Part shown: positions 17,519-49,055 of the stretch, piece by piece
Layout of the letters: each line of letters opens with the position of its first letter
How positions within the stretch are numbered: position 1 is the first letter of the stretch
Source of the DNA: an uncultured Pelotomaculum sp.
GTDB taxonomy: Bacteria; Bacillota; Desulfotomaculia; Desulfotomaculales; Pelotomaculaceae
Reading direction: 5' to 3'
NCBI GenBank assembly: GCA_964498525.1
Contig: CAZCGU010000007.1
Coordinates: 47,405 to 111,404 of the forward strand
DNA: 64,000 nt
The notes under the pieces: generated by a model
What the model was told of the DNA's origin: nothing
Seen by the model: the letters and a program-made list of their open reading frames with translations, nothing else
Database searches by the model: none
Made by a program: the position numbers and the translations under genes

Positions 17519-20500
17519 ATGAAAGGGGCTGACATTTTGATAGAAGCGATTCCGTGTAATATCCTGCAAGTGATTATTGGGGTTGACTGGGATAGGGTTA
17601 AGAGAGTACTGGATATTATCCCCGCCGGCATATCAGTAGCAACTGACGCTTCCTGTAAAGAGATTATCCATAACGCGGCAGCTGCGGAGTTTATGAGAAT
17701 TAAGCCCTGGGAAAACTTTGTATATAAATCTGACCAAAGTCAACCGGTAAGGATGCTTAATAATAATAAGGAACTAACTCCGGCGGAGCTGCCGTTACAT
17801 AGGTCTGCCATAAAAGGTGTGGAAGTAAGGGGTTTTGAGGTAGAATTCATTTGGGACGACGGTGTTCGTAAAATTATGCTGATGAATTCCAGCCCAGTAG
17901 TTGATGAAAACGGTACCATTATAGGGGCTATTGGCAGCTTCAAGGACATCACCGGGCGCAAGCGGGCCGAGGAGGCGCTTCAGGTAAGCGAAAGGGAGTA
18001 CCACGCTCTTTTTAACTCCATTGACGAAGGGTTCTGCATCATCGAGGTCCTATTTGATGATAATGACCGCCCCCTTGACTGCCGCTTTCTTGAGGTTAAC
18101 CAGGCCTTCAAGCGGCAAACGGGACTTGTGGATGCACTGGGCCGTCGTATGCGGGACATGGTCCCCGAACATGAGCAGCATTGGTTCGACATTTGTGGGC
18201 ATATCGCCCTCACCGGCGAGCCCGCCCGGTTTCAGAAGCCGGCAAAAGCGCTTGGCCGCTACTACGACGTATACGCTTTCCGTGTCGGGAAGCCCGGGCA
18301 GCGGCAAGTGGCCATTCTTTTCAACGACATTAACGCACGCAAGCAGGCCGAGGAGGCGTTGCGGGAAAGTGAGGAGCGCTTCCGCGCCCTGGTGGATGCC
18401 AGCTCGGACGTGGTGTACCGCATGAGCCCGGACTGGGGTGAAATGTACTACCTGCAAGGCCGGGATTTGATCCCCGGTACTTGCACCCCGAACCACACCT
18501 GGCTTGACAAGTACATCTGCTCCGATGATCAACCCCGTGTGCTCGCGGCGATCGGAGAGGCCATCCGGGCCAGGAGGGTCCTTGAGCTGGAACACCGGGT
18601 CCTGCGTGTGAACGGTACACCGGGTTGGGCATTTTCCCGTGCCTTCCCGATTCTGGATGCGAACGGCGAGATAACTGAATGGTTCGGAACGGCCAAGGAC
18701 ATCACCAAACGCAAGCAGGCCAAGGAGGCCCTGCGGGAAAGCGAGGAGCGGCATTCATTCCTGCTGAAGCTGGGCGACGCGCTGCGTCCGCTCACCGACG
18801 CAAAGGCGATCCAGGGCGCCGCCACCAGCCTGCTGACGGAACATTTACGAGCAGCGCAGGCCGGCTATAGCGGATACACTGCGGACGCCATTGTGGTTCA
18901 TAGCGAGACGCTAAACGACACCGGGCAGCCTCCGAATGCGGCCGGCACATATAAAATAAGCCACTTTCCGGCATCGGTTGCCTTGCTGCGCACAGGCAAA
19001 GACCTGGTGGTGACGGATGTACTCTCTTTTCCCGCTTTTTCCGAAGAGGAGCGCGCGCATTTAGCGGCGCTCAATGTCAGGGCCGTCATTGCAGTGCCCC
19101 TCGTGAAAGAAGGCAGACTCATCGCCGCGCTCAACGTCAGGCAGGCAACCCCGCGCCGGTGGACAACGGCGGAAGCAGAGCTGGTGCGCGAGGTCGCCGA
19201 TCGTACCTGGGCAGAGGTACAGCGGGCCCAAGCCGAGGCGGAGCTGAGAAGAACGCTGGATCATTTAGAAGAAAAAGTGGCAGAAAGGACCAGGGAGCTA
19301 ACCCGGGGGCGGCAACGGCTGTTGGATGTGCTGGAGACGCTGCCTATCCACATATTTCTTTTAAACTCCGGTCACAAGGTCCTTTTTGCTAACCGGGCTG
19401 CCCGCAAGATGTTTGGAGAGCCTGACGGCCGCTGTTGTTACGACTATTTTCATGGAGGCCACAAGCCCTGCGGGTACTGTCAGTCATACCGTCCCCTTGA
19501 AACCGGCGAACCCCATAATTGGGAGGCAAAAACATATGGGGGCCGTATTCTAGACGTTTACGATTTACCGTTTACCGATACAGACGGGTCACATTTAATT
19601 CTAAAGATGTCTATTGATATTACAGAACGTAAAAACGCGGCCAGGGCCCTGCGCCAGTCCGAGGAGCGTTTTGCCAGAATATTTTACCACAGCCCTGTCC
19701 TGCTGGCCATAATACGCATGAGGGATAACGTATTTATCGATGTCAATCAAAAATTTATCGATACTATGGAATACTCCAGGGAAGAGGTTTTGGGTAAAAC
19801 ACCGGTAAATTTAAATATTTGGGCTGGGGATAACTACCAAATTGAATTCTTCTTAAGTGAATTACAAGAAAAAGGGGTAGTTACTAATTTTGAATACAGG
19901 CTTAAGACCAAATCCGGAAAAATAATCGCCGTATTAGTATCCACCGTAAAGATGGACTTGAACGGTGAAGCATGCCGGATATCATTAATGAAAGATATCA
20001 CCAATGAAAAGAAGCTGGAAGCAGAGATAACCCGCCTGGACCGCTTAAATTTGGTGGGCGAAATGGCCGCCGGGATCGGGCACGAGGTGAGGAACCCCAT
20101 GACCACAGTAAGAGGATTTCTGCAGCTTCTGGGGGGGAAGGAGAGGTACGCCCAGGACAGGGTATACTTTAACCTCATGGTGGAAGAGTTGGACAGGGCC
20201 AACTCCATCATTTCCGAGTACCTGTCTCTGGCTAAAAACAAGGCCGTAAATTTAGAGATAAAGGATCTGAATAAAATCCTCAGATCCTTATTGCCGCTGA
20301 TGCAGGCGGATGGTTTGGTGACGGATAATTACATTGTTCTGAAAACCAAAAAGGTCCCCGGCTTAATGCTGGACGAGAAGGAAATACGCCAACTGATTTT
20401 AAACCTGGTACGCAACGGTTTGCAGGCTATGGAACCGGGCAAAACGCTGACTATAAATACATTCCAGGAAGGAGACAACGTAGTGCTGGCGGTAAAGGAC

Positions 20501-20710
20501 CAGGGTATGGGCATCCCTTACGACATAATCGACAGAATCGGCAACCCGTTCTTTACCACCAAGGACAACGGCACCGGCCTGGGTCTGGCTGTTTGCTTCA
20601 GTATCGCGGCCAGGCACAAGGCGATAATTGATTTTGAGACGGGGGAACAGGGCACCACCTTCTTTGTCAGATTTAAAAAAATGGCGCCGACCGGTGACCG
20701 AAAGGAATAA
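17519..20710 (+). CDS. multi-PAS/PAC + GAF sensor histidine kinase (sporulation-kinase-like HisKA)
   Basis: Repeated PAC-linker signature (K/R)DIT.RK.AEEALRESEERF occurs three times. GAF-like middle. H-box GHEVRNPMTTVRGFLQLL, N-box LNLVRNGLQAM, G-boxes DQGMGIP and GTGLGLAV. Confidence 0.85.
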   Translation: MKGADILIEAIPCNILQVIIGVDWDRVKRVLDIIPAGISVATDASCKEIIHNAAAAEFMRIKPWENFVYKSDQSQPVRMLNNNKELTPAELPLHRSAIKGVEVRGFEVEFIWDDGVRKIMLMNSSPVVDENGTIIGAIGSFKDITGRKRAEEALQVSEREYHALFNSIDEGFCIIEVLFDDNDRPLDCRFLEVNQAFKRQTGLVDALGRRMRDMVPEHEQHWFDICGHIALTGEPARFQKPAKALGRYYDVYAFRVGKPGQRQVAILFNDINARKQAEEALRESEERFRALVDASSDVVYRMSPDWGEMYYLQGRDLIPGTCTPNHTWLDKYICSDDQPRVLAAIGEAIRARRVLELEHRVLRVNGTPGWAFSRAFPILDANGEITEWFGTAKDITKRKQAKEALRESEERHSFLLKLGDALRPLTDAKAIQGAATSLLTEHLRAAQAGYSGYTADAIVVHSETLNDTGQPPNAAGTYKISHFPASVALLRTGKDLVVTDVLSFPAFSEEERAHLAALNVRAVIAVPLVKEGRLIAALNVRQATPRRWTTAEAELVREVADRTWAEVQRAQAEAELRRTLDHLEEKVAERTRELTRGRQRLLDVLETLPIHIFLLNSGHKVLFANRAARKMFGEPDGRCCYDYFHGGHKPCGYCQSYRPLETGEPHNWEAKTYGGRILDVYDLPFTDTDGSHLILKMSIDITERKNAARALRQSEERFARIFYHSPVLLAIIRMRDNVFIDVNQKFIDTMEYSREEVLGKTPVNLNIWAGDNYQIEFFLSELQEKGVVTNFEYRLKTKSGKIIAVLVSTVKMDLNGEACRISLMKDITNEKKLEAEITRLDRLNLVGEMAAGIGHEVRNPMTTVRGFLQLLGGKERYAQDRVYFNLMVEELDRANSIISEYLSLAKNKAVNLEIKDLNKILRSLLPLMQADGLVTDNYIVLKTKKVPGLMLDEKEIRQLILNLVRNGLQAMEPGKTLTINTFQEGDNVVLAVKDQGMGIPYDIIDRIGNPFFTTKDNGTGLGLAVCFSIAARHKAIIDFETGEQGTTFFVRFKKMAPTGDRKE

Positions 20711-20798
20711 AACCCCCGGGCTTTTACCTGAAGATGGGGGGATTTCAGGTAAAGAGAAGTACCCCGTGAAAGCATTTACCAGAATACACTAACGGTTA

Positions 20799-20862
20799 TA
20801 AATCAAAACGCATTTCCTGCTACCATAAATAGAAATAGCTGATAGAGTTTACCGCAAATAGA
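20799..20862 (+). repeat. left copy of a 64-bp imperfect direct repeat bracketing the defence operon
   Basis: TAAATCAAAACGCATTTCCTGCTACCATAAATAGAAATAGCTGATAGAGTTTACCGCAAATAGA aligns without gaps to 30729-30792. Identity is roughly 85% by eye. Confidence 0.8.
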
Positions 20863-21356
20863 ATCATATCTGGTGATAATCGTTTCAAGATCATGTCATT
20901 ATAGCACCGGCTCCGGTGGATATAGCTGGCACAGAAAATCCTCCCGGTAACAGGCCTGAAAATAAAACTTTTTTACGCAATTTATTGAAATATTTGATAA
21001 TATGAGAATAACAACAGAAGGAGGCTGAAATATTTTTTCAACGCCTTAAAATTCAAATGTCATATCATACCTGCTATTATGATAAATAAAGGATCAATAA
21101 ATAGTACCCATGGATTAAATTAAAAGTTTGCCAGCCCTGATGGACGTACCGCCAACGACCTGCTTTACAGGAGACCCCGCCTTGCGTAAGTAATATAGAA
21201 GCGGTTAGACGCACTTACGATGCAGGCTGACTTATTATAATGATCGTAACGGTTAACCAATATCAACAATTAAAGTTGGGGGGATAAGTTATACAGACGA
21301 TATTTGACCTTTGCAAGCCGAGGGAGAGCGTTTTTGCCGACACCACGAGAGATGAT

Positions 21357-24300
21357 GTGCTGAACCTGAGCGACTTGGTTGAAAAAAGGATAGACGCTGA
21401 CAAATTCTTCAGCGAGAATTTCAAGACCAAAGGCATGGACATCCTTTTTGATACAACCTTTAAACGGTTTCAGGGCAAATCCGATACCGGTGTGATCAAG
21501 CTGACCCAGGCTATGGGCGGCGGTAAAACCCATAATATGCTGGCCCTGGCTTTACTTGCTGAAAATAAAGGCTGGCGCAGAAAAATAATCGGCAGGGAAT
21601 ACGATGATATCGGCGACATCAAAGTTGTGGCCTTCTCCGGGCGTGAAAGCGACGCCCCTTTTGGCATTTGGGGCAGCATTGCCGAACAGCTTGGCAAAAA
21701 GGAAATGTTTGCCGAGCTGTACTCCCCTTTGCGGGCGCCCGGTGAGAGCGCCTGGATCAGGCTGTTGCAGGGTGAAAATATCCTGATCCTGTTTGACGAA
21801 CTGCCCCCCTATTTGGAGAATGCCAGGTCGATCACAGTCGGCAACTCCGATTTGTGCAAGGTAACCGTTACCGCCCTGGCTAACCTCTTTGCCGCGCTGG
21901 GCAAACAGCAGCTGGCCAATGTTTGCCTGGTTTTTTCCGACCTCAAGGCAACTTATGAATCCGGCAGTGAGCTGTTGCAATTCAGTTTCAAGGAATTGGA
22001 AAGTGAGGCCAACCGTTCCGCGATAAACATTGAACCGGTGGCGCTGAACTCGGACGAAATATACGATATCCTGAAAAAAAGGCTTTTTGAAGAATTTGCG
22101 AAAAGCAACTCCACCGCGGTAAACAATATCGCTATAGAGTATAAGAACGCTTTGACCCGTGCTAATAAGATGGGACTGACCAATCAAGCGGCTGATAAAT
22201 TGTTCCTGGGCATCCGGGACTCCTATCCCTTCCACCCTTCCATCAAAGAGCTGTACGCCCGGTTTAAAGAAAACACCAATTTCCAGCAAACCCGCGGCCT
22301 GATCAAGCTGATGCGCCAGATCGTTCGCCAGTTTTATGAAAGCGGCAAGGCCCAGAGGAAGCATCTCATTAACGTTTTTGACATTGATTTAAATGACAGG
22401 AACATGCTGAGCTACATCAAGCAGATTAAGCCTTCTCTGGAAGCCGCCATCAGCCATGATATCGCCGCGTCAGGCAAGTCAGTGGCAGAGGCGATTGACG
22501 ATCAGGAAGGTGACTCCTACCCTTACGCCCAGGACGTCTGCAAGCTGCTGCTCATGTCATCCCTGTGCGATACCGCGCATGGTTTGCAGGGCCTGACCGA
22601 CTCGGAGGCAATGGGGTTCCTGTGTGATCCCAATATTGAGCTAAACAACTACAAAAAGGCGTTTGAAGAAATAAAAACCCAGAGTTGGTATCTGAAAATG
22701 GACAACCGGGGGCGCTACTATTTCCAAAACACCAAGAACATGGTGGCTGAAATGAATACCCTGGTTGATTCCTACAGCAACGAGAACGCCAAAAAAGAGC
22801 TGAAAAAGTTCCTCGATGAAAACTTTAAGCCGGTGATGAAAAAGTGCTACGAGCTTTTATATGTACTGCCGGCTATCGATGAAATCCAGCTGGATATGAA
22901 CAAGATTGCCCTGGTTATTTTCGAACCTTACCCCGGGGCTAAACTGCACCCGGACCTGCAAGCCTTTTATCACAATGCGCCCTACAAAAACAGGGTGATG
23001 TTCCTGTCCGGGCAGCGCAGCCTGATGGAAAAGCTCTATCAAAACAGCAAGCGCCTGACGGCTATCCGCCAGATCATTGCCAACATGAAGGCGGAGCACG
23101 TGCCGGCAACAGACCAGCAGTACAAAGAAGCCGAGAACCAGCAGGACAAGGCTGCCCAGGCCCTGCTGCAAACTATCCGCGAAGCCTTTGTCACTCTCTA
23201 CTTTCCCACCAAAGCGGGTATTATCTCCGAGGACTTTAAGCTGGAGTTTAAGGAAAATTCCTTTAAAGGCGAAGACCAGATCATCAAAGCTTTAGCCGAA
23301 GCGGAGAAATTCCAGGACTACCAGGCCAATGACGCCTTTATGGAAATCATGCGCAATAAATGCGAGCAGCGTCTTTTTACGCAAAAGGAGATGACCTGGA
23401 ACCAGATCAAGGAGCGGGCGGCAACCGAAACCATCTGGCAGTGGTACCACCCCAGTCAGTTTGAAGATCTGCGCCAGGATTGCCTCAAAAAAGACAAGTG
23501 GCGGGAGGTTGGCGGCTATATCGAAAAAGGCCCCTTTGCCAAAGATCCTACTTCCGTAGTCGTCGAGCAGATCAGCTATAATGAACAGACTGGCGAGTTC
23601 ACCTTGAAAGTGCGCGGGGTACATGGCGACCGCATCTATTATGACATCGGCGCAGAACCTACCACTGCTTCGGCAGAGGTGACCCAAACGCCGTTTATCA
23701 CCAAAGAACCACTGATCAGTTTTATCTGCGTGGATTCCAATACAAGCGCCCCGCACCCGACTGGCAGCGTCAAAGAGTTTATGTGCCAGGCGCCATTGCG
23801 CTACGAGCAGCGCCAGAGCGTGCAGGGCAGCATAATGGAGCTGAAAGCCCACGAGGATTTTGAAATTCGTTATACCACCGACGGCAGCAACCCCAAGGAA
23901 AGCGGCGGCGTCTATACCGGCGAGATTGTGCTGCCGTCTTCATGTAGATACGTAAGGACTGCTATGCTATATAAAGGAAAGGTTGTAGAAGAAAAAGACA
24001 TTGCCATTGACGAAAAACCAAAACCCGGGAAGTTCAAAATTGAAGACAGCAAGCCTCTCCAGTACACGCTGCGCAACCAAAAAAAGTGCGGTGATACAGA
24101 GGCTACCTACTCCGAGCTGGAAAAACTGAAGAAGCTTAACGGGGCCTTTATTCGTCACTTCACGGTGATTATCTCCGAAAAAGACTACCCGGACAACTAT
24201 ATGGAGCTTTCTACCGCCAGCGTGCCCTATGACGCCGATAATCTGCAGGCTACCGTTGATCTGATCCGGGAGTCTGCTTTTGCCGGCAAGGATGTGGTGG

Positions 24301-24416
24301 TGGAGTTTGACTATAAGACATTGCTATTCACCTCCGGCGCCCAGTTTAAGGACTGGATCGAAATAAACAAGTATGACATCATGGAAATACAGAAAAGAGG
24401 ATCGATTAAGCAATGA
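21357..24416 (+). CDS. DUF499-type P-loop ATPase (defence-associated)
   Basis: 1019 aa. Walker A QAMGGGKTHNM, Walker B ILILFDELPPY. The N-terminal pattern FF.ENF.T.GM...F.RF.GKSD.GV..LTQAMGGGKTH is as I recall for DUF499. The reading frame is open back to 21288 with conserved-looking residues, so the true start is probably upstream of the GTG at 21357. Confidence 0.7.
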   Translation: MLNLSDLVEKRIDADKFFSENFKTKGMDILFDTTFKRFQGKSDTGVIKLTQAMGGGKTHNMLALALLAENKGWRRKIIGREYDDIGDIKVVAFSGRESDAPFGIWGSIAEQLGKKEMFAELYSPLRAPGESAWIRLLQGENILILFDELPPYLENARSITVGNSDLCKVTVTALANLFAALGKQQLANVCLVFSDLKATYESGSELLQFSFKELESEANRSAINIEPVALNSDEIYDILKKRLFEEFAKSNSTAVNNIAIEYKNALTRANKMGLTNQAADKLFLGIRDSYPFHPSIKELYARFKENTNFQQTRGLIKLMRQIVRQFYESGKAQRKHLINVFDIDLNDRNMLSYIKQIKPSLEAAISHDIAASGKSVAEAIDDQEGDSYPYAQDVCKLLLMSSLCDTAHGLQGLTDSEAMGFLCDPNIELNNYKKAFEEIKTQSWYLKMDNRGRYYFQNTKNMVAEMNTLVDSYSNENAKKELKKFLDENFKPVMKKCYELLYVLPAIDEIQLDMNKIALVIFEPYPGAKLHPDLQAFYHNAPYKNRVMFLSGQRSLMEKLYQNSKRLTAIRQIIANMKAEHVPATDQQYKEAENQQDKAAQALLQTIREAFVTLYFPTKAGIISEDFKLEFKENSFKGEDQIIKALAEAEKFQDYQANDAFMEIMRNKCEQRLFTQKEMTWNQIKERAATETIWQWYHPSQFEDLRQDCLKKDKWREVGGYIEKGPFAKDPTSVVVEQISYNEQTGEFTLKVRGVHGDRIYYDIGAEPTTASAEVTQTPFITKEPLISFICVDSNTSAPHPTGSVKEFMCQAPLRYEQRQSVQGSIMELKAHEDFEIRYTTDGSNPKESGGVYTGEIVLPSSCRYVRTAMLYKGKVVEEKDIAIDEKPKPGKFKIEDSKPLQYTLRNQKKCGDTEATYSELEKLKKLNGAFIRHFTVIISEKDYPDNYMELSTASVPYDADNLQATVDLIRESAFAGKDVVVEFDYKTLLFTSGAQFKDWIEINKYDIMEIQKRGSIKQ

Positions 24417-24958
24417 GCGCGAAACACAAGACCTATGGATTTGGCGTGGAGCCTGCTCTGAGTACCAACCATTTTTATGTGCTGGCGCCGTCTGCGGGAA
24501 ATGAGCCGGTGCAGGTTTACGAGCGCTACGGTTGGACGGACGGGGAGGAACAAGTTCTGGAGCGATCGGATATTTTGCGGCTGGAGATATCAAAACACAA
24601 ATGGAACCTGGTCAGCGCTGATCTGACATCAGAATTTAATAGCAGGCTGAAAAAAGAAAAACGGAAAACAGGCAGGTTTGTCAAAGGCGGCACACCGGTG
24701 GAAAAACTGTTCGGCAAAGAAATGATGGTCCTTTTGTGGGCTATCGAAGATTGTGACCCGTCTGTTATTCCCACGGCCATCCGCAACTGGAAAGGCCTGA
24801 TGCCCGAAGAACGCTGGTGGCTTTACACCATGACCAATGCCTCCACCGGCCACATGAAGGACAAAAAAGGCTGGCGCGTGGCCCTGCGTTATGCCCTGTG
24901 CGAAAACCCGATCGAAGAGAAACCACAGCTGTCCTTCCTGGATATTATGGACGAATGA
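24413..24958 (+). CDS. small DUF3780-like protein, translationally coupled to the ATPase
   Basis: 181 aa. Its ATG overlaps the upstream stop (ATGA). The assignment rests on its position between DUF499 and DUF1156 genes. The sequence itself has no catalytic motif I can name. Confidence 0.5.
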   Translation: MSAKHKTYGFGVEPALSTNHFYVLAPSAGNEPVQVYERYGWTDGEEQVLERSDILRLEISKHKWNLVSADLTSEFNSRLKKEKRKTGRFVKGGTPVEKLFGKEMMVLLWAIEDCDPSVIPTAIRNWKGLMPEERWWLYTMTNASTGHMKDKKGWRVALRYALCENPIEEKPQLSFLDIMDE

Positions 24959-25015
24959 CTAAAAGAGTACTTTGATCTGCTTGATGAAAATATAAACCGG
25001 CGGTGAAACAAGAAG

Positions 25016-27886
25016 ATGCAGTCGTTTATTGAAAAACAGTTTCCTGTTTCCAAGTTGAGCAAGGAAAGCTATAAAGAGCGTAAATCATCCCAGGGGCAGA
25101 CTATCACCGGTTTGGGTAAATGGTGGGGGCGTAAGCCGCTGGTTTTGGCGCGGGCGGCTATTTTGGGCTGCCTGATGCCGGCCAGCGACAACCCCAGGAA
25201 AGATATGGAGATTTTCCTGAAAATTATGAGTATGGATAATAACGGCCTGCTGCTCCGCAAGAAAAAATCTTTTACTCCACAGGAGCTGTATGACATTGCT
25301 GCAAACAATAGAAAACTTTCTCCTTATATAGCGCAGTGGTTTGATCTTGCTGGCAGCAAAACCAAACTGAAACCGGATATAGATAAAAAAGAGGTAGAGC
25401 GGCGGGTTTTCAATACCCTGGGGTATGACCAGAAACTGACCAAATGTATCCGACCCGAGCAACTGGAAAACCTTGACCCGCAGACCTGGAAGGAAATCAA
25501 TTATCATTTGGGAACAAACGCCGGCGGCCTGCAAGAGCTTACCCAGCAGCTTTCGCTGAAAAGGTTTAGCCATAATGTCCGGGTGGGCGACTGCTTTTGC
25601 GGCGGGGGATCTATACCTTTTGAAGCGGCGCGCATGGGCTGTGATACCTATGCCTCTGACTTGAATCCCATCGCCGGACTGCTGACCTGGGCGAGCATTA
25701 ATATCTGCGGCGCCAGCGCTGAAGAACTGGAAGAAATCAAGAATTTTCAGCAGGAAGTGTTTGATCAGATCGATAAAGAAATTACGGCATTGGGTATTGA
25801 ACATAATGAGCGGGGCGATCGTGCCTTAACCTACCTTTACTGTGTTGAGGCAGTTTGCCCGGAATGCGGGATGAAAACTCCCTTGATCCCATCTTTGGTT
25901 GTGGGAATAAGAGCAGGTAAGGTTGTGGCCAAACTTCATTCAAATGGTCAGGGTTATGATATTGAGATCAAAATGAATGCCACCACTGCTGAAATGAAGG
26001 AAGCGGGGAAAAGTGGTACGGTGACAACAAGGGGTATGGTTTGCCCTAATTGTGGAAAAACCACGCCAATTACCGCGCTTAGAAAAGACCGCCGGGATGA
26101 AAACGGCAATACGGTGTATGGTCTGCGCCAATGGGATAAAACCGACTTCGATTTCAGAGAAGACGATATATATAACGAACGGCTTTATGCCATTCGCTAC
26201 CAGCGTCCCGACGGCAGTCGTTATTATCGCGCGCCAAATGAACGAGACATGCAGAATGAAGCAAAGGTAAAGAAGATTGTAGCGGACAACATTGTTAGCT
26301 GGCAGGAGCAGGGCCTGGTGCCGTCTATGGAAATTGAAAGCGGCTATAATACTGACCAAGTTATAAGAGAACGCGGCTGGATGCATTGGAACCATTTGTT
26401 TAGTGCAAGAGGCTTATATAATCTAAGCCGTATTGTAAAACATGTCATTGACGCTCCGACCCACTTACTAAAAGTTGTCGGTATTCTGGGAATAAATAAA
26501 TGTGCGGATTTTGGATCTAAACTGTGCAGATGGGATCCAAGTCGTGATATTAGTGCCCAAACATATTACAATCAGGCGCTTAACACCTTAATGAATTGGG
26601 GTGAAAAAAGCCTTAAAATGCTTAGTTCCCTGTGGCTATGGGACATAAATTCTTACCCGACCTTTAAGTCCTCTGTAGTATCACTTCTGGACGCCCGCGA
26701 TGTTTCAACGGAATGTCATCTTTGGATAACCGATCCGCCTTACGCTGATGCGGTTAACTACCATGAGCTTTCTGAATTCTTCCTTGCCTGGGACAAGCGG
26801 TTGCTTCATGACGCTTTCCCCAAATGGTATACCGATAGTAAACGCATTCTCGCTGTAAAGGGCGACGAGCGTTTTTCCCAAAACATGATCGAAATATATT
26901 CTAACCTGACCAGACATATGGACGATAACGGCTTGCAGGTGGTCATGTTCACCCACTCTGATTCATCGGTATGGGCGCAGCTTGCTTTGATTATGTGGAA
27001 ATCGGGTCTAAAGGTAAGTGCGGCGTGGAATATCGCCACGGAGACGGACGCTTCCGGCTTAAAGGACGGCAACTATGTCAAAGGCACAGTCTTGCTGGTT
27101 CTACGCAAGCAGACCGGCAACGACACCGCCTACCTGGATGAAATCAACGTGGACATCAAAAACGAAGTTAAAACCCAGATTGAATCCATGCAGGCTTTAG
27201 ACGACAAAGAGGAACCTAATTTCTCCGACCCCGACTATGTGCTGGCGGCCTACGCCGCTTCGTTAAAGGTCTTGACTTCCTACAAAAACATCGGCGAGCT
27301 GGATCTTGATTACGAACTGAACCTGTCCATCAACGACCCGGCAAATTCCAAAGTGGTCAGCCTGATTGAACGCGCCAAAAAGATCGCCTTCGATTTTATC
27401 ATACCGGCCGACTTTGAAAGCTACCTCTGGAAGGATCTGAATAGCGCGGAGCGCTTTTATATTAAAGGTCTGGAGAGTGAAAAACGCGGCAACTATCAGG
27501 TTTCCACCTATCAGGAGTTTGCCCGGGGTTTTGCCATCGGTTCCTACAGCCAGCTCATGGCCAGTGAAAGGGCAAATACAGCGCGGCTGAAAACACCGTT
27601 GGAGCTGGCTATGCGTACCCTGAACGAGGCGCCGGACTTCGAGCGTTCCACTCTGCGCTTGATTTTAGCAGCGATTTACATTTCAATCAAAGAGGACGGA
27701 AAGCCGGAAAAAGGGTTGTTTCACATTAAAAACAATTTGCCTGATTACTGGGGTTCCCGGGATATGCTCAAGCAACTGCTGGCATTTTTAAAAGATACCA
27801 GGGACATCGGCAATATGCCCCACTGGGCGGAATCCGCTGAAGTGGCGGAGCACCTGTATGTATTGGTGGATAACGACCACGTCTAA
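25016..27886 (+). CDS. DUF1156-type DNA methyltransferase (DPPY, N6-A or N4-C class)
   Basis: 956 aa. N-terminus FIEKQFPVSKLSKESYKERKSSQGQTITGLGKWWGRKPLVL is characteristic of DUF1156. SAM motif I DCFCGGGSIPFEA, motif IV ITDPPYADAVNY, and an inserted zinc ribbon CPECG...CPNCG. Confidence 0.8.
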   Translation: MQSFIEKQFPVSKLSKESYKERKSSQGQTITGLGKWWGRKPLVLARAAILGCLMPASDNPRKDMEIFLKIMSMDNNGLLLRKKKSFTPQELYDIAANNRKLSPYIAQWFDLAGSKTKLKPDIDKKEVERRVFNTLGYDQKLTKCIRPEQLENLDPQTWKEINYHLGTNAGGLQELTQQLSLKRFSHNVRVGDCFCGGGSIPFEAARMGCDTYASDLNPIAGLLTWASINICGASAEELEEIKNFQQEVFDQIDKEITALGIEHNERGDRALTYLYCVEAVCPECGMKTPLIPSLVVGIRAGKVVAKLHSNGQGYDIEIKMNATTAEMKEAGKSGTVTTRGMVCPNCGKTTPITALRKDRRDENGNTVYGLRQWDKTDFDFREDDIYNERLYAIRYQRPDGSRYYRAPNERDMQNEAKVKKIVADNIVSWQEQGLVPSMEIESGYNTDQVIRERGWMHWNHLFSARGLYNLSRIVKHVIDAPTHLLKVVGILGINKCADFGSKLCRWDPSRDISAQTYYNQALNTLMNWGEKSLKMLSSLWLWDINSYPTFKSSVVSLLDARDVSTECHLWITDPPYADAVNYHELSEFFLAWDKRLLHDAFPKWYTDSKRILAVKGDERFSQNMIEIYSNLTRHMDDNGLQVVMFTHSDSSVWAQLALIMWKSGLKVSAAWNIATETDASGLKDGNYVKGTVLLVLRKQTGNDTAYLDEINVDIKNEVKTQIESMQALDDKEEPNFSDPDYVLAAYAASLKVLTSYKNIGELDLDYELNLSINDPANSKVVSLIERAKKIAFDFIIPADFESYLWKDLNSAERFYIKGLESEKRGNYQVSTYQEFARGFAIGSYSQLMASERANTARLKTPLELAMRTLNEAPDFERSTLRLILAAIYISIKEDGKPEKGLFHIKNNLPDYWGSRDMLKQLLAFLKDTRDIGNMPHWAESAEVAEHLYVLVDNDHV

Positions 27887-27923
27887 AATAACGATTAAGA
27901 AAACGTTGAAATGAGGTGAGCGG

Positions 27924-30680
27924 ATGATCAGCCGTTACTCCTCCAGGCAAAGCAAGTTGGACACGCAGTTTTTACAGGCAAAGTTAAAGGACGCCGCCGG
28001 CTATGACCGTATTGCCGGTTATTTTTGCTCATCCATCCTGGAGATAGCCGGTGAGGCCATTGAGGGAGTCGCCGGCAAAGTGCGGATCATCTGCAATTCT
28101 TCCCTGGCCCCCGGGGACGTCAAGGTGGCCCAACTGGCCAACCTGCGGCTCAAGCAGGAATGGTGCGAGTATCTGCCGGAGGAAAAATACAGCAGCCCGG
28201 CGGCAGCCGCAAGACTCAAAAAGCTCTATACCCTGCTGACCGAAGGCAAGCTGGAAATCAGAGTGATCCCCGACGAGGTTTACGGGCTGATGCACGGCAA
28301 GGCCGGTGTGATCACCTACAAAGATGGCAGCGCCACCTCATTTATAGGCAGCATCAATGAAACAAAAAGCGCCTATACCGTCAACTATGAAATGATCTGG
28401 GAGGACGATAGCCCCGAGGCCGTAGCCTGGGTGCGGCAGGAGTTTGATTATTTCTGGCGCAGCCGCTATGCTGTCCCCCTTTCCGACTTTATTATCTCGG
28501 ACATTAACCGCATTGCCGGGCGGGTGGTGATCCCGCTGCAGGACTGGCGGGAGGACTACGGGGATATTGTGCCCAGCGTGGCGGTGGAGGAACCTATATA
28601 CAGAAAAGAGTTCGGGTTGTGGGAGCATCAGAAATATTTCGTGGAGCGGGCCTTCCGGGAGCACAAGCAAAAAGGCGGCGCCAGGCTCTTGCTGGCTGAC
28701 ATGGTCGGTTTGGGTAAAACCGTACAGCTGGCCATGTCGGCCAAACTGATGGCCTTGTACGGAGATAAGCCGATCCTGATTATTGTGCCCAAGACCTTGC
28801 TGTTTCAGTGGCAGGATGAACTGCTCACCTTGCTGGATATACCCAGCGCCGTTTGGTCGGGCAAATGCTGGGTCGATGAGAACGGCTATGAGTATCCGTC
28901 AGACAGCGCGCGCAGTATTCTAAAATGCCCCCGCCGGATTGGCATTATTTCGCAAGGGCTGATCACCCGTAAATCCGAAACAGCCGAATACCTGAAACAG
29001 CTCAAGTATGAGTGCGTCATCCTGGATGAGGCGCACCGGGTCAGAAGAAAGAATCTGAATCAAAACGCCGACGAGCACAAAGCGCAGCCCAATAATTTGC
29101 TGGCTTTTTTAAATGAGATTTCCTTTCAGACCACCAGCCTGTTGCTGGCTACGGCAACCCCGGTGCAGATGAACCCGGTGGAGGCCTTCGATTTATTGCA
29201 GGCGCTGGCCTTGCCCGCCGACAAAGTGTTGGGTGACAGGTACAGCATTTGGAGAACTTATCCACAAACAAGCCTGGACTATATTGCGGAAAACCAGCAG
29301 CCTCCCGACGCCGAAGCGGAAATGTGGAACATTGTACGCAACCCCTTTCCGCAAAGGACGGAGAACAACCGGCGGATCGGGATTATCCGCGATCAACTGG
29401 ACCTTGCGGATGACGCCTTTGTTTTGGACCAGAGTTTATACGGCAGCCTGCGCCGGCCGCAAAAGCAGAAAATAAAAGAGCTTTATTATGACGACAGGTT
29501 CGTTATCAACCATAACCCTTACATCCGGTGTATTGTGCGCCGGACCCGCGACTTTTTGGAGAATACCATTAACAAGGAAACCGGCGAGCCTTTTCTGAAA
29601 AAAATTGACGTGGCGCTCCTGGGGGAGAAACCCGGGGAAGCGTTGGAATTAAAGGGTTACCTCCTGGAGGCCTATCAAATTGCCGAGGAATTTTGTTCCC
29701 TGCTCTCCGCTCGAGTCAAGGGCGGCGGCTTCATGTCTACCTTGATGCTCAGACGCATCGGCAGTACTATGCTGGCCGGTGAGGGCACCGCTAAAAAGAT
29801 GCTGGCCTGGACGCGGGAGGGCAAGGAACGCTTGAAAGATTTATATGACGATGTCTTCGGTGAGGACGAGGAAGAAAAAGAAGACCAGCACAGCGAGATC
29901 AAGGATCTAACTGCTGAAGAGCTGGACTGCCTGGAAAGGCTGGTTAAGGTGCTGCGGGATAACAGGGATACCGACCCCAAATACAACAAGGTTCTGGAAA
30001 TCCTGCAAAAAGGCGTGGAGGATGAAGGTCCCTGGCAGGACCAGGGTTGCATTATCTTCTCCCAGTATTTCGACAGCGCTAACTATGTGGCCAGGCTGCT
30101 TTCCCGGGACATTAAAGACACAAAAATCGGGCTTTATGCCGGCGGCGATAAGTCGGGCGTTTATAGGGATGGCTTTTTCACTAAGGAAACCAAAGACAAT
30201 ATCAAGTCCATGGTCAGAAGCCGGGAGATTAAAGTTCTGGTTGGTACCGACGCGGCCTCGGAGGGTTTAAACTTGCAAACCCTGTCCACGCTGATTAACC
30301 TCGACTTGCCGTGGAACCCCACCCGGTTGGAACAGCGGAAAGGCCGTATTCAACGTATCGGCCAGCTGGCCGACAGGATCCTGATTTACAATATGCGCTA
30401 CAAAGATTCAGTGGAAGACCGGGTGCACTTCCTGCTATCCCACCGTCTTAAGAGTATTTATGGCATCTTCGGGCAGATTCCGGAGGTTCTGGAAGACGTG
30501 TGGATTGCACTGGCCCAAAAGGACGAGCAAAGGGCTTTGGAAGCCATAAACAAGATGCCCGAAAAAAACCCGTTCAAGCTGAAATATGAGACGGACATCC
30601 CTAAAAGCGCTGATTGGGAAAAATGCGAATTTGTTATTGATAAGCAGGAGAAACGCAGGGAATTGCTCAGGGGGTGGTAA
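27924..30680 (+). CDS. PLD-family nuclease domain fused to an SNF2-family helicase
   Basis: N-terminal HxK motif LMHGKAGVITYKDGSATSFIGSINET. SNF2 motifs LLADMVGLGKT (I), ILDEAHRVRR (II), LLATATPVQ (III), GTDAASEGLNLQ and QRKGRIQRIGQ (V-VI). Confidence 0.85.
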   Translation: MISRYSSRQSKLDTQFLQAKLKDAAGYDRIAGYFCSSILEIAGEAIEGVAGKVRIICNSSLAPGDVKVAQLANLRLKQEWCEYLPEEKYSSPAAAARLKKLYTLLTEGKLEIRVIPDEVYGLMHGKAGVITYKDGSATSFIGSINETKSAYTVNYEMIWEDDSPEAVAWVRQEFDYFWRSRYAVPLSDFIISDINRIAGRVVIPLQDWREDYGDIVPSVAVEEPIYRKEFGLWEHQKYFVERAFREHKQKGGARLLLADMVGLGKTVQLAMSAKLMALYGDKPILIIVPKTLLFQWQDELLTLLDIPSAVWSGKCWVDENGYEYPSDSARSILKCPRRIGIISQGLITRKSETAEYLKQLKYECVILDEAHRVRRKNLNQNADEHKAQPNNLLAFLNEISFQTTSLLLATATPVQMNPVEAFDLLQALALPADKVLGDRYSIWRTYPQTSLDYIAENQQPPDAEAEMWNIVRNPFPQRTENNRRIGIIRDQLDLADDAFVLDQSLYGSLRRPQKQKIKELYYDDRFVINHNPYIRCIVRRTRDFLENTINKETGEPFLKKIDVALLGEKPGEALELKGYLLEAYQIAEEFCSLLSARVKGGGFMSTLMLRRIGSTMLAGEGTAKKMLAWTREGKERLKDLYDDVFGEDEEEKEDQHSEIKDLTAEELDCLERLVKVLRDNRDTDPKYNKVLEILQKGVEDEGPWQDQGCIIFSQYFDSANYVARLLSRDIKDTKIGLYAGGDKSGVYRDGFFTKETKDNIKSMVRSREIKVLVGTDAASEGLNLQTLSTLINLDLPWNPTRLEQRKGRIQRIGQLADRILIYNMRYKDSVEDRVHFLLSHRLKSIYGIFGQIPEVLEDVWIALAQKDEQRALEAINKMPEKNPFKLKYETDIPKSADWEKCEFVIDKQEKRRELLRGW

Positions 30681-30728
30681 GGGTAGGTAGAGTGTTTTTT
30701 GCTTGCGAAAATAGTTTGTTTGTCAACC

Positions 30729-30792
30729 TAAACCAAAACTTATTTCCTGTTACCATACATAGAAACAGCAGATAGGGTTTGCTGCAAATAGA
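30729..30792 (+). repeat. right copy of the 64-bp direct repeat bracketing the defence operon
   Basis: TAAACCAAAACTTATTTCCTGTTACCATACATAGAAACAGCAGATAGGGTTTGCTGCAAATAGA. See 20799-20862. Confidence 0.8.
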
Positions 30793-30968
30793 GGCGGGTG
30801 CAAGGCGCAACAGGACTGGGGACAGTAACGGGGGCAGGGACAGGGACAAGGGACCTGTCCCCCTGTACCAGAAAGAAACAAAGCCCCCGGGCTTTTATTG
30901 CTGGCGTTCTGGCCAATATAAGGCAAATGGCGTTAAATCATGCTAAATTATTTGGAGGTTTGGTTAAA

Positions 30969-31709
30969 ATGGATTACCATAAGATCTGCGGGGAAATCAA
31001 AAATTGTGATAAGGGTTGTTTTAGAGACAGGTACCAGGATTATCTCCATAACGGACAACAGTATAGCAAGAATTATTTTTGTTCCATCAGCCCTATGGCC
31101 TCTGTTCCGTTATCGCCTAAAGTGCTATTAATCAGTCAAAATCCACCCCTGCAAGCATGGATCAATGCTGGATTGAACGGTGAATTGCCAGATGGGGGCT
31201 TAATCAGCGGGAGCAATGAATTTTTTGTAAATAATTTACTGCCAGCCTTTGGTTTAGATTCATCCGGTATCGAGTTGTTTCGGGAAACAGTAGCCTGGGT
31301 TCACCTGGTTAATTGCCATCCCTGGTTAAGCGTGACAACAGATGGAGGCGGCAGGGAATCGCGGCAGGATAAAACGCCAACAACCAATGAAATAAACAAC
31401 TGCATCCGGAGTTGGTTGGAACCGCTGCTTCAAATTGAATCGATGAAATTAGTTGTGCCCATGGGTAAACCGGCATTGTCACTGTTTTTTAAACTGGGTG
31501 ATAATAATTATACCGAAATAATGAAAACCGTCCCCTTTTTTAATGACACCCTCTTGCCAAAAAAGATATTGTTCCCCATATTTCACCAGTCCGGACGAAG
31601 CAAGATTTTCAATGACCCCAAATGCCTGGAAGCCAATGAGAAAGCAATTGCCCTGCTGGATGAGGCTTATGAAGAACTTACAAAGGAACAAAGGAACAAA
31701 GAAAAATAG
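30969..31709 (+). CDS. uracil-DNA-glycosylase-superfamily (family 4/5-like, Fe-S type) protein with divergent motif A
   Basis: Preferred start is the ATG at 30969 after GGAGG; the track ORF starts at 30798 inside the repeat region. N-terminal Cys cluster CGEIKNCDKGC. VLLISQNPP occupies the place of GEAPG. HLVNCHP...TTNEINNCIRSWLEPLL...LVVPMGKPA parallels NvvKCRP...E...C...L....iv.LG..A. FHQSGRS occupies the place of HPS. Confidence 0.5.
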   Translation: MDYHKICGEIKNCDKGCFRDRYQDYLHNGQQYSKNYFCSISPMASVPLSPKVLLISQNPPLQAWINAGLNGELPDGGLISGSNEFFVNNLLPAFGLDSSGIELFRETVAWVHLVNCHPWLSVTTDGGGRESRQDKTPTTNEINNCIRSWLEPLLQIESMKLVVPMGKPALSLFFKLGDNNYTEIMKTVPFFNDTLLPKKILFPIFHQSGRSKIFNDPKCLEANEKAIALLDEAYEELTKEQRNKEK

Positions 31710-31760
31710 ATTAAATTTGAATTGATTGCATCTGGCATAATCCACAGGCGGGCGTCTTTT

Positions 31761-32210
31761 TCAATGAAGCCTGGAATCCGGTTGCTTTTGAGACAGTTTG
31801 GTGAGTAATTCCAGAAACAGAGATTTTGTCAGGGGCTGTCTGTTTTCCATGCACAACCAGCCTTTCCCGCTGGAATATAGCAGGGAATATCCCTGTCCGT
31901 TGTTGGTCATGTCCACGCGTCCTATTGCGCCAATGGCAAACCTGCCCGCCGGCTTAAGCTCAATGAGCATGTTTTTCATTTTCAGGTACAACATGGGCGC
32001 GCTGTATTTGCCTATATGCTCCTCTTCCAGCTCAACCACCGTTTCTATAATCTCACAGACCGGCGTGCAGCATGGGCACGTGGCGCCTTGCTGCGGCCTG
32101 GTCCATTCTTTTAGCTGTTTCACCAGAACGTTCAGGGCCGCCAGCCAATCCTCCTTGATTTTTTCGTTTGTCAACATCCCTTCTTCGAAAGGGGCGGTCA
32201 TATTAATCAA
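31761..32210 (-). CDS. hypothetical protein (Cys-containing, no recognised domain)
   Basis: 149-aa ORF lying downstream of, and co-oriented with, the membrane protein gene. Confidence 0.4.
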   Translation of the reverse strand: MINMTAPFEEGMLTNEKIKEDWLAALNVLVKQLKEWTRPQQGATCPCCTPVCEIIETVVELEEEHIGKYSAPMLYLKMKNMLIELKPAGRFAIGAIGRVDMTNNGQGYSLLYSSGKGWLCMENRQPLTKSLFLELLTKLSQKQPDSRLH

Positions 32211-32331
32211 CTCCCTATCTTATTTCGAATAAATACAGGCTTCTTCCAGACGCCTTTCAGATGTACTAACTATTAACTATATTTCTGCAAAGGGAGATTA
32301 ACCGCAACTTTCCGTGCAGGATAATATTTTA

Positions 32332-33051: not shown

Positions 33052-33300
33052 TATTTTTCTTTCCTCCCCCCATAACATTGATACTAATTTGTTGATTAGA
33101 CAAAAACCGTGCCGGTACCTCCCGGGTACTGGTGTATTTTCTAAAGATCGCAAGCCGCCGGCGGTGTCATTTGTCCATGGCCCGGAGTAATTTTGCCCGG
33201 GTTACCAAAGGGGGAGACCCAGGAATCCTGTCCTCAATGAGGGGGTAGTAGTGGGCCCGAAAAATAATCCCTGTATGACCGCTTCCCCTGGCCCCAGGCC

Positions 33301-40982: not shown

Positions 40983-41424
40983 GGAAATACATGTTGACAT
41001 TTCTAACTCATAGGAGAGCTATTATGTGCGTGTGTGATTAGGTGGGGATTATCTGAAAAAGAGAAAGGCATCCAGATCGCGGATGCTATTTGTGGCGCTG
41101 CATCTAGGAATTTCAATAATATTGAAGCTCCAAGTTTTTTTAATCTTATAGAACATCTTAAACAGGGAGTTAAAGTGATTGATAAATAATTTAGCATAGC
41201 CTTTGTGTCACGGGCGCCCTATAAAGGGACTTACCCCGCACCTCTGCCCACATACTGCAGGCCGGCCATGCTAGTACTAAAATTATAAAGCTGTATACAA
41301 CATATTACACCTTTTTTTGTATGAATTACAACCAGTTTTTGCCCCGTTAATAAGGGGACAGAAAATTATTTTGCATGTAATTTTTTCACGATGACAAGGG
41401 TTTTAATAATTTTTTGGAAAAGAG

Positions 41425-44003: not shown

Positions 44004-44012
44004 GAGGGCAAG

Positions 44013-48212: not shown

Positions 48213-48213
48213 A

Positions 48214-49045: not shown

Positions 49046-49055
49046 GAGCAAAAAT

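What the first reader, a model, noticed from the sequence alone, without database searches (positions are those of the whole stretch)
21288..30680. Four-gene DUF499 ATPase / DUF3780 / DUF1156 methyltransferase / PLD-SNF2 helicase operon: a methylation-linked defence-type module with no worked-out mechanism
- **Operon structure:** four co-directional genes are packed as one operon. There is an ATGA overlap at 24413, then gaps of 57 and 37 nt.
- **Gene 1:** a 1019-aa P-loop ATPase (GGGKTH, FDELPPY).
- **Gene 2:** a 181-aa protein with no catalytic motif.
- **Gene 3:** a 956-aa DPPY methyltransferase with the DUF1156 N-terminus and an inserted zinc ribbon.
- **Gene 4:** a 918-aa protein fusing a PLD HxK nuclease domain to a complete SNF2 helicase.
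- **Logic:** a self-marking methylase plus an ATP-driven translocase/nuclease resembles BREX, DISARM and type I/ISP restriction.
- **Why it is not those systems:** it lacks their hallmarks (no PglZ, no DUF1998, no HsdS-like specificity subunit).
- **Prior knowledge:** as I recall, DUF499-DUF1156-helicase neighbourhoods have been flagged in comparative surveys of defence islands. I know of no description of how the ATPase, the small protein and the PLD-SNF2 fusion cooperate.
- **Context:** the operon sits in an AT-rich gap next to a large CRISPR-Cas locus and is bracketed by direct repeats.
Basis: partly seen in the sequence, partly recalled or inferred. Interest (0 to 1): 0.8.

Follow-up and report, generated by a model that had tools for sequence, protein, structure and literature searches.

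The report
MANTIS (Gao_RL) anti-phage defence island
The four genes are a complete copy of a known bacterial anti-phage system, called Gao_RL, type-2 BREX-related or MANTIS, carried on a 10-kb insertion in an uncultured Bacillota genome; its mechanism was largely worked out in a 2026 preprint, so the locus is an ordinary new member rather than an unexplained system.

Summary
Four co-directional genes lie at 21291-30680 and encode a DUF499 AAA+ ATPase, a DUF3780 protein, a DUF1156 DPPY methyltransferase and a PLD/HKD-Snf2 helicase.

This gene set is Gao_RL/Gao_29. PADLOC models PDLC02189-02193 and the NCBIfam 'anti-phage-associated' equivalogs NF042961-64 all hit it full-length. It was catalogued as the type-2 BREX-related system (NAR 2026). 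It was then dissected as MANTIS MtsABCD (bioRxiv, 24 Sep 2026).

In that work:
- MtsA and MtsB load and activate MtsC, which hemimethylates an asymmetric 6-bp site.
- The dimeric PLD-helicase MtsD restricts unmodified DNA, and inverted site pairs are restricted best.

All catalytic and interface residues named there are conserved here, although identity to a Pseudomonas system is only 31-41%.

New local details:
- A near-identical strain has an empty site, which defines a 10,171-bp integrase-less island (20727-30897) flanked by a 36-nt imperfect repeat.
- mtsA most likely starts at a conserved non-canonical ATA codon (21291), not at the GTG that gene callers chose.
- There is no MtsR repressor gene.
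- The Cys4 zinc ribbon in MtsC is specific to this clade.

Verdict: a new member of a known kind, of low interest.

The parts
20691..20726 (+). Repeat A. This is the chromosomal junction sequence. It spans the stop codon of the PAS/GAF histidine kinase gene and includes the near-palindrome AAAACCCCCGGGCTTTTA.
   Evidence: It is the single copy present in the empty-site contig L057.
20727..30897 (+). A 10,171-bp inserted island, absent from a 98.6-99.6% identical strain. It holds an AT-rich leader, mtsABCD, and repeats B, B' and A'. It has no integrase and no tRNA gene.
   Evidence: L057 joins window 20209-20726 directly to 30871-33064
20801..20861 (+). Repeat B, an internal direct repeat near the left end of the island. 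It matches B' at 51 of 61 positions.
20862..21277 (+). AT-rich leader with three sigma-70-like promoter matches at 20972-21080. It contains no MtsR-like ORF. It is not conserved in the closest relatives.
21278..21283 (+). GGGGGG Shine-Dalgarno-like run, 7 nt upstream of the ATA start. The same arrangement occurs in L007.
21291..24416 (+). mtsA, encoding a DUF499 ORC/Cdc6-type AAA+ ATPase of 1041 aa counted from ATA. Conserved residues: Walker A K79, H81, Walker B D169/E170, arginine finger R242 and sensor-2 R335. A beta-sandwich (Fn3_assoc) domain lies at about aa 850-889.
24413..24958 (+). mtsB, encoding the DUF3780 co-activator (181 aa). E133, W136, S144 and G153 align with the dimer-interface residues reported for the Pseudomonas protein.
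25016..27886 (+). mtsC, encoding a DUF1156 N6-adenine methyltransferase (956 aa). Features: motif I F194CGGG; Cys4 zinc ribbon C281/C284/C343/C346 (25856-26053); variable, presumably target-recognition, zone at aa ~450-572 (26363-26731); motif IV D573PPY (26732-26743).
27924..30680 (+). mtsD, encoding the PLD/HKD nuclease fused to a Swi2/Snf2 helicase (918 aa). Motifs: H124xK126, Walker A K265 and DEAH368.
30731..30791 (+). Repeat B', the internal direct repeat near the right end of the island.
30862..30897 (+). Repeat A', a diverged copy of A (29 of 36 positions, with a perfect 14-nt core) that forms the right end of the island.

Best explanation
The locus is a complete MANTIS system, also known as Gao_RL/Gao_29 or the type-2 DUF499-centred BREX-related system. 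It sits on a 10.2-kb integrase-less island in an uncultured Bacillota genome close to Desulfitobacteriaceae and Dehalobacterium.

The mechanism below is inferred by homology from the Pseudomonas aeruginosa work. None of it was shown for this locus.
1. MtsC recognises a short asymmetric site, probably 6 bp, through a variable region at about aa 450-572. It cannot load onto DNA by itself.
2. The AAA+ protein MtsA loads MtsC at unmodified sites.
3. Nucleotide-bound MtsA together with the MtsB dimer triggers N6-adenine methylation of one strand.
4. ATP hydrolysis by MtsA resets the cycle for the next site.
5. On incoming unmodified DNA, site-bound MtsABC recruits or activates the dimeric MtsD.
6. 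The Snf2 motors of MtsD translocate along the DNA, and its single composite PLD active site cuts it.
7. Cutting is strongest when sites lie in inverted orientation and weaker at direct repeats or single sites.

Shown here by sequence analysis:
- All four genes are present, in the conserved order.
- All catalytic residues are intact.
- The cassette is mobile and the island has defined borders.
- The mtsA start codon is ATA.

Inferred only: the methylation chemistry, the recognition motif and the anti-phage activity.
For: - Best full-length PADLOC matches are DUF499 (PDLC02192, 611 bits), DUF3780 (PDLC02191), DUF1156_MTase (PDLC02189, 896 bits) and PLD_Helicase (PDLC02193, 795 bits).
- The NCBIfam anti-phage equivalogs are passed by the methyltransferase (1279 bits, cut-off 1000) and the PLD-helicase (1263 bits, cut-off 1100).
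- The gene order A-B-C-D is kept in every one of about 30 GTDB loci long enough to show it. No other neighbour is conserved.
- Nucleotide homology with the closest relatives covers exactly 21277/21279-30680, and those relatives sit in unrelated genomic contexts.
- I aligned the proteins to the RefSeq-annotated P. fluorescens pG69 system. In pG69 MtsA, MtsB and MtsD, the residues named in the preprint occur at the published P. aeruginosa positions. Conserved in the window are MtsA K79, H81, D169/E170, R242 and R335; MtsB E133, W136, S144 and G153; MtsC FxGGG and DPPY; and MtsD HxK, K265 and DEAH.
- The variable block of MtsC lies just upstream of DPPY. It drops to 40-64% identity against an otherwise roughly 90% identical relative, as expected for a specificity-swapping region.
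- Literature: PMC12839542 and bioRxiv 10.64898/2026.09.23.753747.
Against: - Nothing functional was tested for this locus.
- Identity to the Pseudomonas-type system is only 31% for MtsA, 41% for MtsB, 41% for MtsC and 39% for MtsD.
- MtsA (756 bits, cut-off 1200) and MtsB (161 bits, cut-off 200) fall below the NCBIfam equivalog cut-offs. Their whole Bacillota clade does too: L048 scores 743 and 165.
- mtsA has no canonical start codon at the homologous position, so MtsA levels may be very low.
- Even in the reference system, DNA cleavage by MtsD has not been reconstituted and the role of MtsB is unresolved.
Confidence: 0.85

Rival explanations
1. The locus is a decaying or silenced copy. On this reading the ATG-to-ATA change at the mtsA start abolishes or truncates MtsA, so the system neither methylates nor restricts.
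For: - ATA replaces the ATG or GTG found in 34 of 36 homologues.
- Gene callers fall back on GTG 21357. That start would remove 22 conserved N-terminal residues, part of the loop reported to contact ATP.
Against: - The same ATA, with the same GGGGGG-N7 spacing, is kept in a second lineage (L007, 95% protein identity) that sits in a different genomic context. In L007 the GTG codon is GTA.
- The 22 codons between ATA and GTG show 5 synonymous and 0 non-synonymous differences between the two lineages.
- There are no frameshifts or stop codons, and all catalytic residues are intact in all four genes.
- ATA is identical in five independent assemblies.
- In the reference system, loss of MtsA is not toxic. 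Decay would therefore be tolerated, yet none is seen elsewhere in the operon.
Confidence: 0.1
2. The locus belongs to a neighbouring family: Hma (type-1 BREX-related), type-3 BREX, DISARM, or a type I/III/ISP restriction-modification system.
For: Weaker PADLOC hits exist to HmaC (168 bits), HmaB (110), HmaA (123), DrmD (140), BrxHI/II (117) and PglX (40). The overall ATPase, methylase and helicase logic is shared.
Against: - The type-2-specific models score 4-8 times higher and align full-length.
- DUF3780 and the N-terminal HKD nuclease are the type-2 hallmarks.
- The island holds only these four genes. It has no PglZ, BrxA/B, DrmA/B or HsdS.
Confidence: 0.02
3. The module is not a defence system here. 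It would be an epigenetic or DNA-repair module working with the adjacent uracil-DNA-glycosylase-family gene.
For: A UDG-family gene (30969-31709) lies 289 nt downstream on the same strand.
Against: - The UDG gene is present and adjacent to the histidine kinase gene in the strain that lacks the island, so it is host backbone.
- UDG is next to mtsD in none of the 41 related loci.
- The family has experimentally shown anti-phage and anti-plasmid activity.
Confidence: 0.03

Closest known systems
MANTIS MtsABCD of Pseudomonas aeruginosa AZPAE15024, also called Gao_RL/Gao_29 or BR type-2 (bioRxiv 10.64898/2026.09.23.753747)
   Same: The same four proteins occur in the same order. The ATPase, methyltransferase, PLD and helicase catalytic residues are the same, and four of six MtsB dimer-interface residues align. 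Like the reference, it is a standalone mobile cassette.
   Different: - Identity is only 31-41% to the RefSeq-annotated P. fluorescens pG69 system used as the Pseudomonas stand-in.
- There is no MtsR (Arc/CopG) gene.
- MtsC carries a Cys4 zinc ribbon that pG69 lacks.
- MtsB is shorter at both ends, 181 aa against 216 aa.
- mtsA starts at ATA.
- The recognition motif is unknown.
Type-2 DUF499-centred BREX-related systems (Rakesh & Krishnan, NAR 2026, PMC12839542)
   Same: It fits the published definition exactly: DUF499 ATPase, standalone DUF3780, DUF1156 N6-methyltransferase, and an HKD-Swi2/Snf2 helicase without a TUDOR domain. The MtsA beta-sandwich domain matches the FnIII-like domains that paper reports upstream of the C-terminal domain in 53% of taxa.
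   Different: Nothing architectural. That paper proposed DUF3780 as a reader of DNA modification, which the MANTIS biochemistry did not support.
Hma / type-1 BREX-related system (PADLOC; Halomonas HmaA study, PMC11232893)
   Same: Homologous DUF499 ATPase, DUF1156 methyltransferase and Snf2 helicase-nuclease effector.
   Different: Hma has no DUF3780. Its helicase carries an N-terminal TUDOR domain and a C-terminal PD-(D/E)XK nuclease instead of an N-terminal HKD nuclease. The Hma models score far lower here.
SauUSI (type IV) and type III/ISP restriction enzymes
   Same: An ATP-driven motor is coupled to a nuclease, and cleavage depends on site orientation. According to the preprint, MtsD is structurally similar to the PLD-helicase dimer SauUSI.
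   Different: SauUSI is autonomous and cuts methylated DNA. MtsD needs MtsABC and targets unmethylated DNA. By sequence, the motor of the window's MtsD is closest to Snf2/RapA proteins, and SauUSI is not among the 60 best PDB sequence matches listed.

Membership tests
MANTIS / Gao_RL / BR type-2 | DUF499 ORC/Cdc6-type AAA+ ATPase (MtsA) with Walker A, Walker B, arginine finger and sensor 2 | tested here: met
   Pfam DUF499 scores 94.9 bits (cut-off 23). PADLOC PDLC02192 scores 611 bits full-length. K79, D169/E170, R242 and R335 are conserved.
MANTIS / Gao_RL / BR type-2 | Standalone DUF3780 protein (MtsB) encoded between the ATPase and methyltransferase genes | tested here: met
   Pfam DUF3780 scores 174.5 bits (cut-off 27). 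PADLOC PDLC02191 gives E = 1.8e-45. E133, W136, S144 and G153 are conserved.
MANTIS / Gao_RL / BR type-2 | [quoted passage not shown] | tested here: met
   NCBIfam NF042963 scores 1279 bits (cut-off 1000). F194CGGG and D573PPY are invariant across 33 homologues.
MANTIS / Gao_RL / BR type-2 | N-terminal HKD/PLD nuclease fused to a Swi2/Snf2 helicase (MtsD) | tested here: met
   NCBIfam NF042964 scores 1263 bits (cut-off 1100). PLDc_2, SNF2-rel_dom and Helicase_C are all matched. H124xK126, K265 and DEAH368 are present.
MANTIS / Gao_RL / BR type-2 | Four genes in one co-directional operon in the order A-B-C-D | tested here: met
   The order is the same in about 30 related loci.
MANTIS / Gao_RL / BR type-2 | NCBIfam equivalog cut-offs for MtsA (NF042962) and MtsB (NF042961) | tested here: inconclusive
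   MtsA scores 756 against a cut-off of 1200, and MtsB 161 against 200. The clade-mate L048 also fails (743 and 165), while the Pseudomonas control passes (1485 and 282). This is clade-level divergence from the seed sequences.
MANTIS / Gao_RL / BR type-2 | ATP-, MtsA- and MtsB-dependent hemimethylation of an asymmetric 6-bp site | not testable with these tools
   Needs methylome data or biochemistry. Known only for the Pseudomonas and E. coli systems.
MANTIS / Gao_RL / BR type-2 | Restriction of phages and plasmids that needs all four proteins and favours inverted site pairs | not testable with these tools
   Literature only.
Hma / BR type-1 | Three-gene set without DUF3780, whose helicase has a TUDOR N-terminus and a C-terminal PD-(D/E)XK nuclease | tested here: not met
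   DUF3780 is present, and the nuclease is an N-terminal HKD. HmaA, HmaB and HmaC models score 123, 110 and 168 bits, against 795, 896 and 611 bits for the type-2 models.
BREX (types 1-6) | PglZ phosphatase with BrxC, plus BrxA/BrxB and a PglX-type methyltransferase | tested here: not met
   The 10.2-kb island holds only the four genes. The PglX model scores only 39.8 bits. No PglZ hit was found among the four proteins.
DISARM | DrmA helicase, DrmB (DUF1998) and DrmC (PLD), with DrmMI or DrmMII | tested here: not met
   The DrmD and DrmA hits cover only the C-terminal helicase part of MtsD (up to 140 bits). The island has no DUF1998 gene.
Type I / III / ISP restriction-modification | HsdS specificity subunit (type I), a Mod-Res pair (type III), or a single methyltransferase-helicase-nuclease polypeptide (type ISP) | tested here: not met
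   There is no HsdS or Mod/Res match. The methyltransferase and the motor-nuclease are separate proteins and come with two extra components.

The most novel reading that the evidence does not exclude
This Bacillota clade may regulate MANTIS differently from the characterised Pseudomonas system. It has no MtsR repressor. In the window's lineage and its closest sister, mtsA keeps a conserved AUA start codon behind a strong G-run ribosome-binding site. The AUA could act as a translational throttle that keeps the MtsC loader MtsA scarce, which would set the balance between self-methylation and restriction. The clade-specific Cys4 zinc ribbon in MtsC could additionally change how the methyltransferase engages DNA.
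Probability: 0.2. Interest if true: 0.35.

Novelty: new member of a known kind. Interest (0 to 1): 0.2.

Why it matters
As a discovery it matters little. The system type has been named, catalogued across more than 1000 taxa, shown to defend against phages and plasmids, and dissected mechanistically.

The locus still has some practical value:
- It is a clean, minimal natural example: four genes on a 10,171-bp island, with a matching empty-site strain in public metagenomes. Comparing the methylomes of the two strains could give the recognition motif of a Bacillota-clade MANTIS without any cloning.
- It shows that the clade lacks MtsR and has a zinc-ribbon-bearing MtsC.
- It shows that current NCBIfam cut-offs under-annotate MtsA and MtsB in Bacillota.
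- The AUA start corrects the gene model used in public protein catalogues, which list 1019 aa instead of 1041 aa.

Tried and rejected
- PDB sequence searches with the single proteins and with family profiles found no MANTIS or BrxC entry, and SauUSI was not among the matches listed. They returned only Snf2 motors for MtsD and a beta-sandwich domain for MtsA. The similarities to BrxC and SauUSI therefore rest on the preprint, not on my tests.
- A DNA search of mtsC against 5,426 complete E. coli genomes found nothing. The E. coli Gao_RL system is too divergent at the DNA level.
- A metagenome-wide exact-pattern scan for the 3' end of the histidine kinase gene found nothing.
- An exact-protein look-up of the histidine kinase returned only occupied sites. 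The empty site came from the UDG look-up instead.
- Rfam with permissive thresholds over 19000-33000 gave no RNA family.
- There is no tRNA gene in the window, so the island is not tRNA-associated.
- I looked for an MtsR-like ribbon-helix-helix ORF in 20711-21290 and found none. Homology to close relatives starts only at the ribosome-binding site.
- I looked for repeats A and B in all fetched loci and found none outside this genome, so they are not a general cassette-end motif.
- I considered that P0006 might be a third lineage with a non-canonical start. It has a GTG at the canonical position that the gene caller missed.
- I did not run structure prediction. The family assignment was already decisive, and the reference structures are not in the library.
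Full report

Yes. Four co-directional ORFs occupy 21357-24416, 24413-24958, 25016-27886 and 27924-30680. The first two overlap by ATGA, and the next two junctions are gaps of 57 and 37 nt.

Pfam assigns the domains as follows:
- Gene 1: DUF499 plus a C-terminal Fn3_assoc/CHB_HEX_C beta-sandwich.
- Gene 2: DUF3780.
- Gene 3: DUF1156.
- Gene 4: PLDc_2, SNF2-rel_dom and Helicase_C.

**2. What is it?**

PADLOC's best hits are full-length and belong to one set of models: DUF499 (PDLC02192), DUF3780 (PDLC02191), DUF1156_MTase (PDLC02189) and PLD_Helicase (PDLC02193). Hma, DISARM and BREX models score far lower.

NCBIfam holds four 'anti-phage-associated' equivalogs for exactly these proteins, NF042961 to NF042964. 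The methyltransferase (1279 bits, cut-off 1000) and the PLD-helicase (1263 bits, cut-off 1100) pass their curated cut-offs.

The literature search settled the identity. A January 2026 NAR paper defines 'type-2 DUF499-centred BREX-related systems' as a DUF499 ATPase, a standalone DUF3780, a DUF1156 N6-methyltransferase and an HKD-Swi2/Snf2 helicase. It finds them in 1120 taxa (PMC12839542).

[quoted passage not shown] It reports the following for a P. aeruginosa operon:
- The system hemimethylates an asymmetric 6-bp site.
- Methylation by MtsC needs loading by the AAA+ protein MtsA, stimulation by MtsB, and ATP hydrolysis for turnover.
- Restriction needs all four proteins and both ATPase activities.
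- Specificity resides in a variable region of MtsC.
- Inverted pairs of unmodified sites are restricted most strongly.
- Structures were solved for all four proteins.
- Two things remain open: in-vitro cleavage by MtsD and the exact role of MtsB.

**3. Is the window's operon really a member?**

I fetched a RefSeq-annotated system from Pseudomonas fluorescens plasmid pG69. In its MtsA, MtsB and MtsD, the residues named in the preprint occur at the published P. aeruginosa positions.

Global alignments give 31% identity for MtsA, 41% for MtsB, 41% for MtsC and 39% for MtsD. Every residue singled out in the preprint that can be aligned is conserved in the window:
- MtsA: K79, H81, D169/E170, R242 and R335.
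- MtsB: E133, W136, S144 and G153.
- MtsC: FxGGG and DPPY.
- MtsD: H124xK126, K265 and DEAH.

A scan of one genome per GTDB species returned 41 related loci, mostly Bacillota and Synergistota. Every locus long enough to judge has the order A-B-C-D. None has the window's flanking genes.

MtsA and MtsB fall below the NCBIfam cut-offs, at 756 against 1200 and 161 against 200. A clade-mate, L048, does the same, while the Pseudomonas control passes. This is divergence of the whole Bacillota clade from the seed sequences, not a defect of this copy.

**4. Clade-specific differences**

- The four cysteines of the 'inserted zinc ribbon' in MtsC (C281, C284, C343, C346) are conserved in all 32 Bacillota-clade homologues. 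Three of them are replaced in pG69.
- Conservation along MtsC dips just upstream of DPPY. Against L049, a relative that is otherwise about 90% identical, residues ~450-575 fall to 40-64% identity. That pattern is expected for the specificity-determining region.
- There is no MtsR-like ORF. Nucleotide homology to the nearest relatives starts at the mtsA ribosome-binding site and ends at the mtsD stop codon, spanning 21277/21279-30680.

**5. The mtsA start codon**

Gene callers begin mtsA at GTG 21357. Homologues are 1039-1045 aa long, however, and they align to the 22 codons upstream of that GTG.

At the position where 31 homologues have ATG and 3 have GTG, the window has ATA at 21291. A GGGGGG run lies 7 nt upstream and a TAA stop lies two codons upstream. 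The ATA is identical in five independent assemblies.

The closest GTDB relative, L007, shares 95% protein identity and sits in a different genomic context. It has the same ATA and the same ribosome-binding site, and it carries GTA where the window has GTG. The 22 codons differ between the two by 5 synonymous and 0 non-synonymous changes. With the ATA start, the NCBIfam alignment reaches profile position 1.

I conclude that translation most likely starts at AUA, giving 1041 aa, and that expression is probably low. The synonymous-only pattern alone is not statistically decisive: the gene-wide ratio is 162 synonymous to 53 non-synonymous.

**6. Context and mobility**

There are two pairs:
- A (20691-20726) and A' (30862-30897) match at 29 of 36 positions.
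- B (20801-20861) and B' (30731-30791) match at 51 of 61 positions.

Each core occurs only at these two places in the window.

A look-up of the downstream UDG-family protein found a metagenome contig, L057 from ENA ERZ28615095. In it, the 3' end of the histidine kinase gene (window 20209-20726, 98.6% identity) joins directly to 30871-33064 (99.6% identity) through a single copy of A.

The system therefore sits on a 10,171-bp island, 20727-30897, that is present in some strains and absent in others. The island has no integrase, and the window has no tRNA gene. The data cannot distinguish insertion from deletion by recombination in the shared 14-nt core. The B/B' pair lies inside the island and remains unexplained.

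- The operon's GC content (0.50) equals that of the window (0.485). Only the 580-nt leader is AT-rich, at 0.384.
- The CRISPR-Cas region lies 9.3 kb downstream, beyond several unrelated, non-defence genes (among them a histone-deacetylase-family and a protease-family gene). It comprises type I genes at 39957-49976 with an array at 50240-50873, and a type III module at 51489-61975 with an array at 62726-63133.
- The UDG and histidine kinase genes are host backbone, not parts of the system.

By its RsgA protein, the host is an uncultured Bacillota genome near Desulfitobacteriaceae and Dehalobacterium.

**7. Verdict**

The defence interpretation is right, but the claim that the mechanism is unknown has been overtaken by the literature. 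The locus is a new and divergent member of a known, experimentally characterised kind.

Its local curiosities are the AUA start, the lack of MtsR, the zinc-ribbon MtsC and the clean island/empty-site pair. They are modest. Interest is 0.2.

Noticed in passing
window 21291-21293 (also L007 5007-5009): mtsA has ATA where 34 of 36 homologues have ATG or GTG. The codon is conserved, together with the same G-run ribosome-binding site, in a second lineage. Public gene calls (1019 aa from GTG 21357) are probably 22 residues too short.
   Followed up: yes
window 20691-20726 / 30862-30897; L057 1-2685: A near-identical strain in another metagenome (ENA ERZ28615095) has an empty site. This defines a 10,171-bp island without an integrase, flanked by a 36-nt imperfect repeat with a perfect 14-nt core.
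   Followed up: yes
window 20801-20861 and 30731-30791: A second pair of 61-nt direct repeats (84% identical) lies just inside both ends of the island. Their order relative to the A repeats is swapped (A-B ... B'-A'). Their origin and function are unexplained, and they were not found in any other fetched locus.
   Followed up: partly
L063 5995-6555; also L064, L081, L086, L088-L091 and L094 (IMG/VR contigs): About nine viral contigs encode a DUF3780 (MtsB-like) protein without mtsA, mtsC or mtsD. In L063 it sits among phage primase and antirepressor genes. These could be anti-MANTIS decoys. About 24 other viral contigs carry the complete four-gene system.
   Followed up: partly
L051 5341-6480 (Proteus phage vB_PvuS_Pm34, KY420199.1, gp5-gp4): A sequenced temperate phage carries the 3' fragment of an mtsA gene followed by a C-terminally shortened mtsB. 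The mtsB scores 248 bits against the NCBIfam DUF3780 anti-phage model. Both genes are annotated as hypothetical. This may be a captured remnant or an inhibitor.
   Followed up: partly
window 39957-63133: There are two CRISPR-Cas modules whose arrays share nearly the same 37-nt repeat. The first is type I-like (Cas6, Cas7/DevR, Cas3-HD, Cas1, Cas4, Csa1) with an array at 50240-50873. The second is type III (Card1-like CARF nuclease, Cas10, RAMPs, Csm6) with an array at 62726-63133.
   Followed up: partly
window 949-4896: A 1315-aa phage tape-measure-like protein (PhageMin_Tail) lies at the left end of the window, which suggests a prophage or phage remnant upstream.
   Followed up: no
L009, L015, L030, L043 (between mtsC and mtsD): In several related loci, 0.7-2 kb of extra DNA separates mtsC from mtsD. 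In L030 there is also extra DNA between mtsB and mtsC. These may be accessory genes or insertions, and they were not examined.
   Followed up: no
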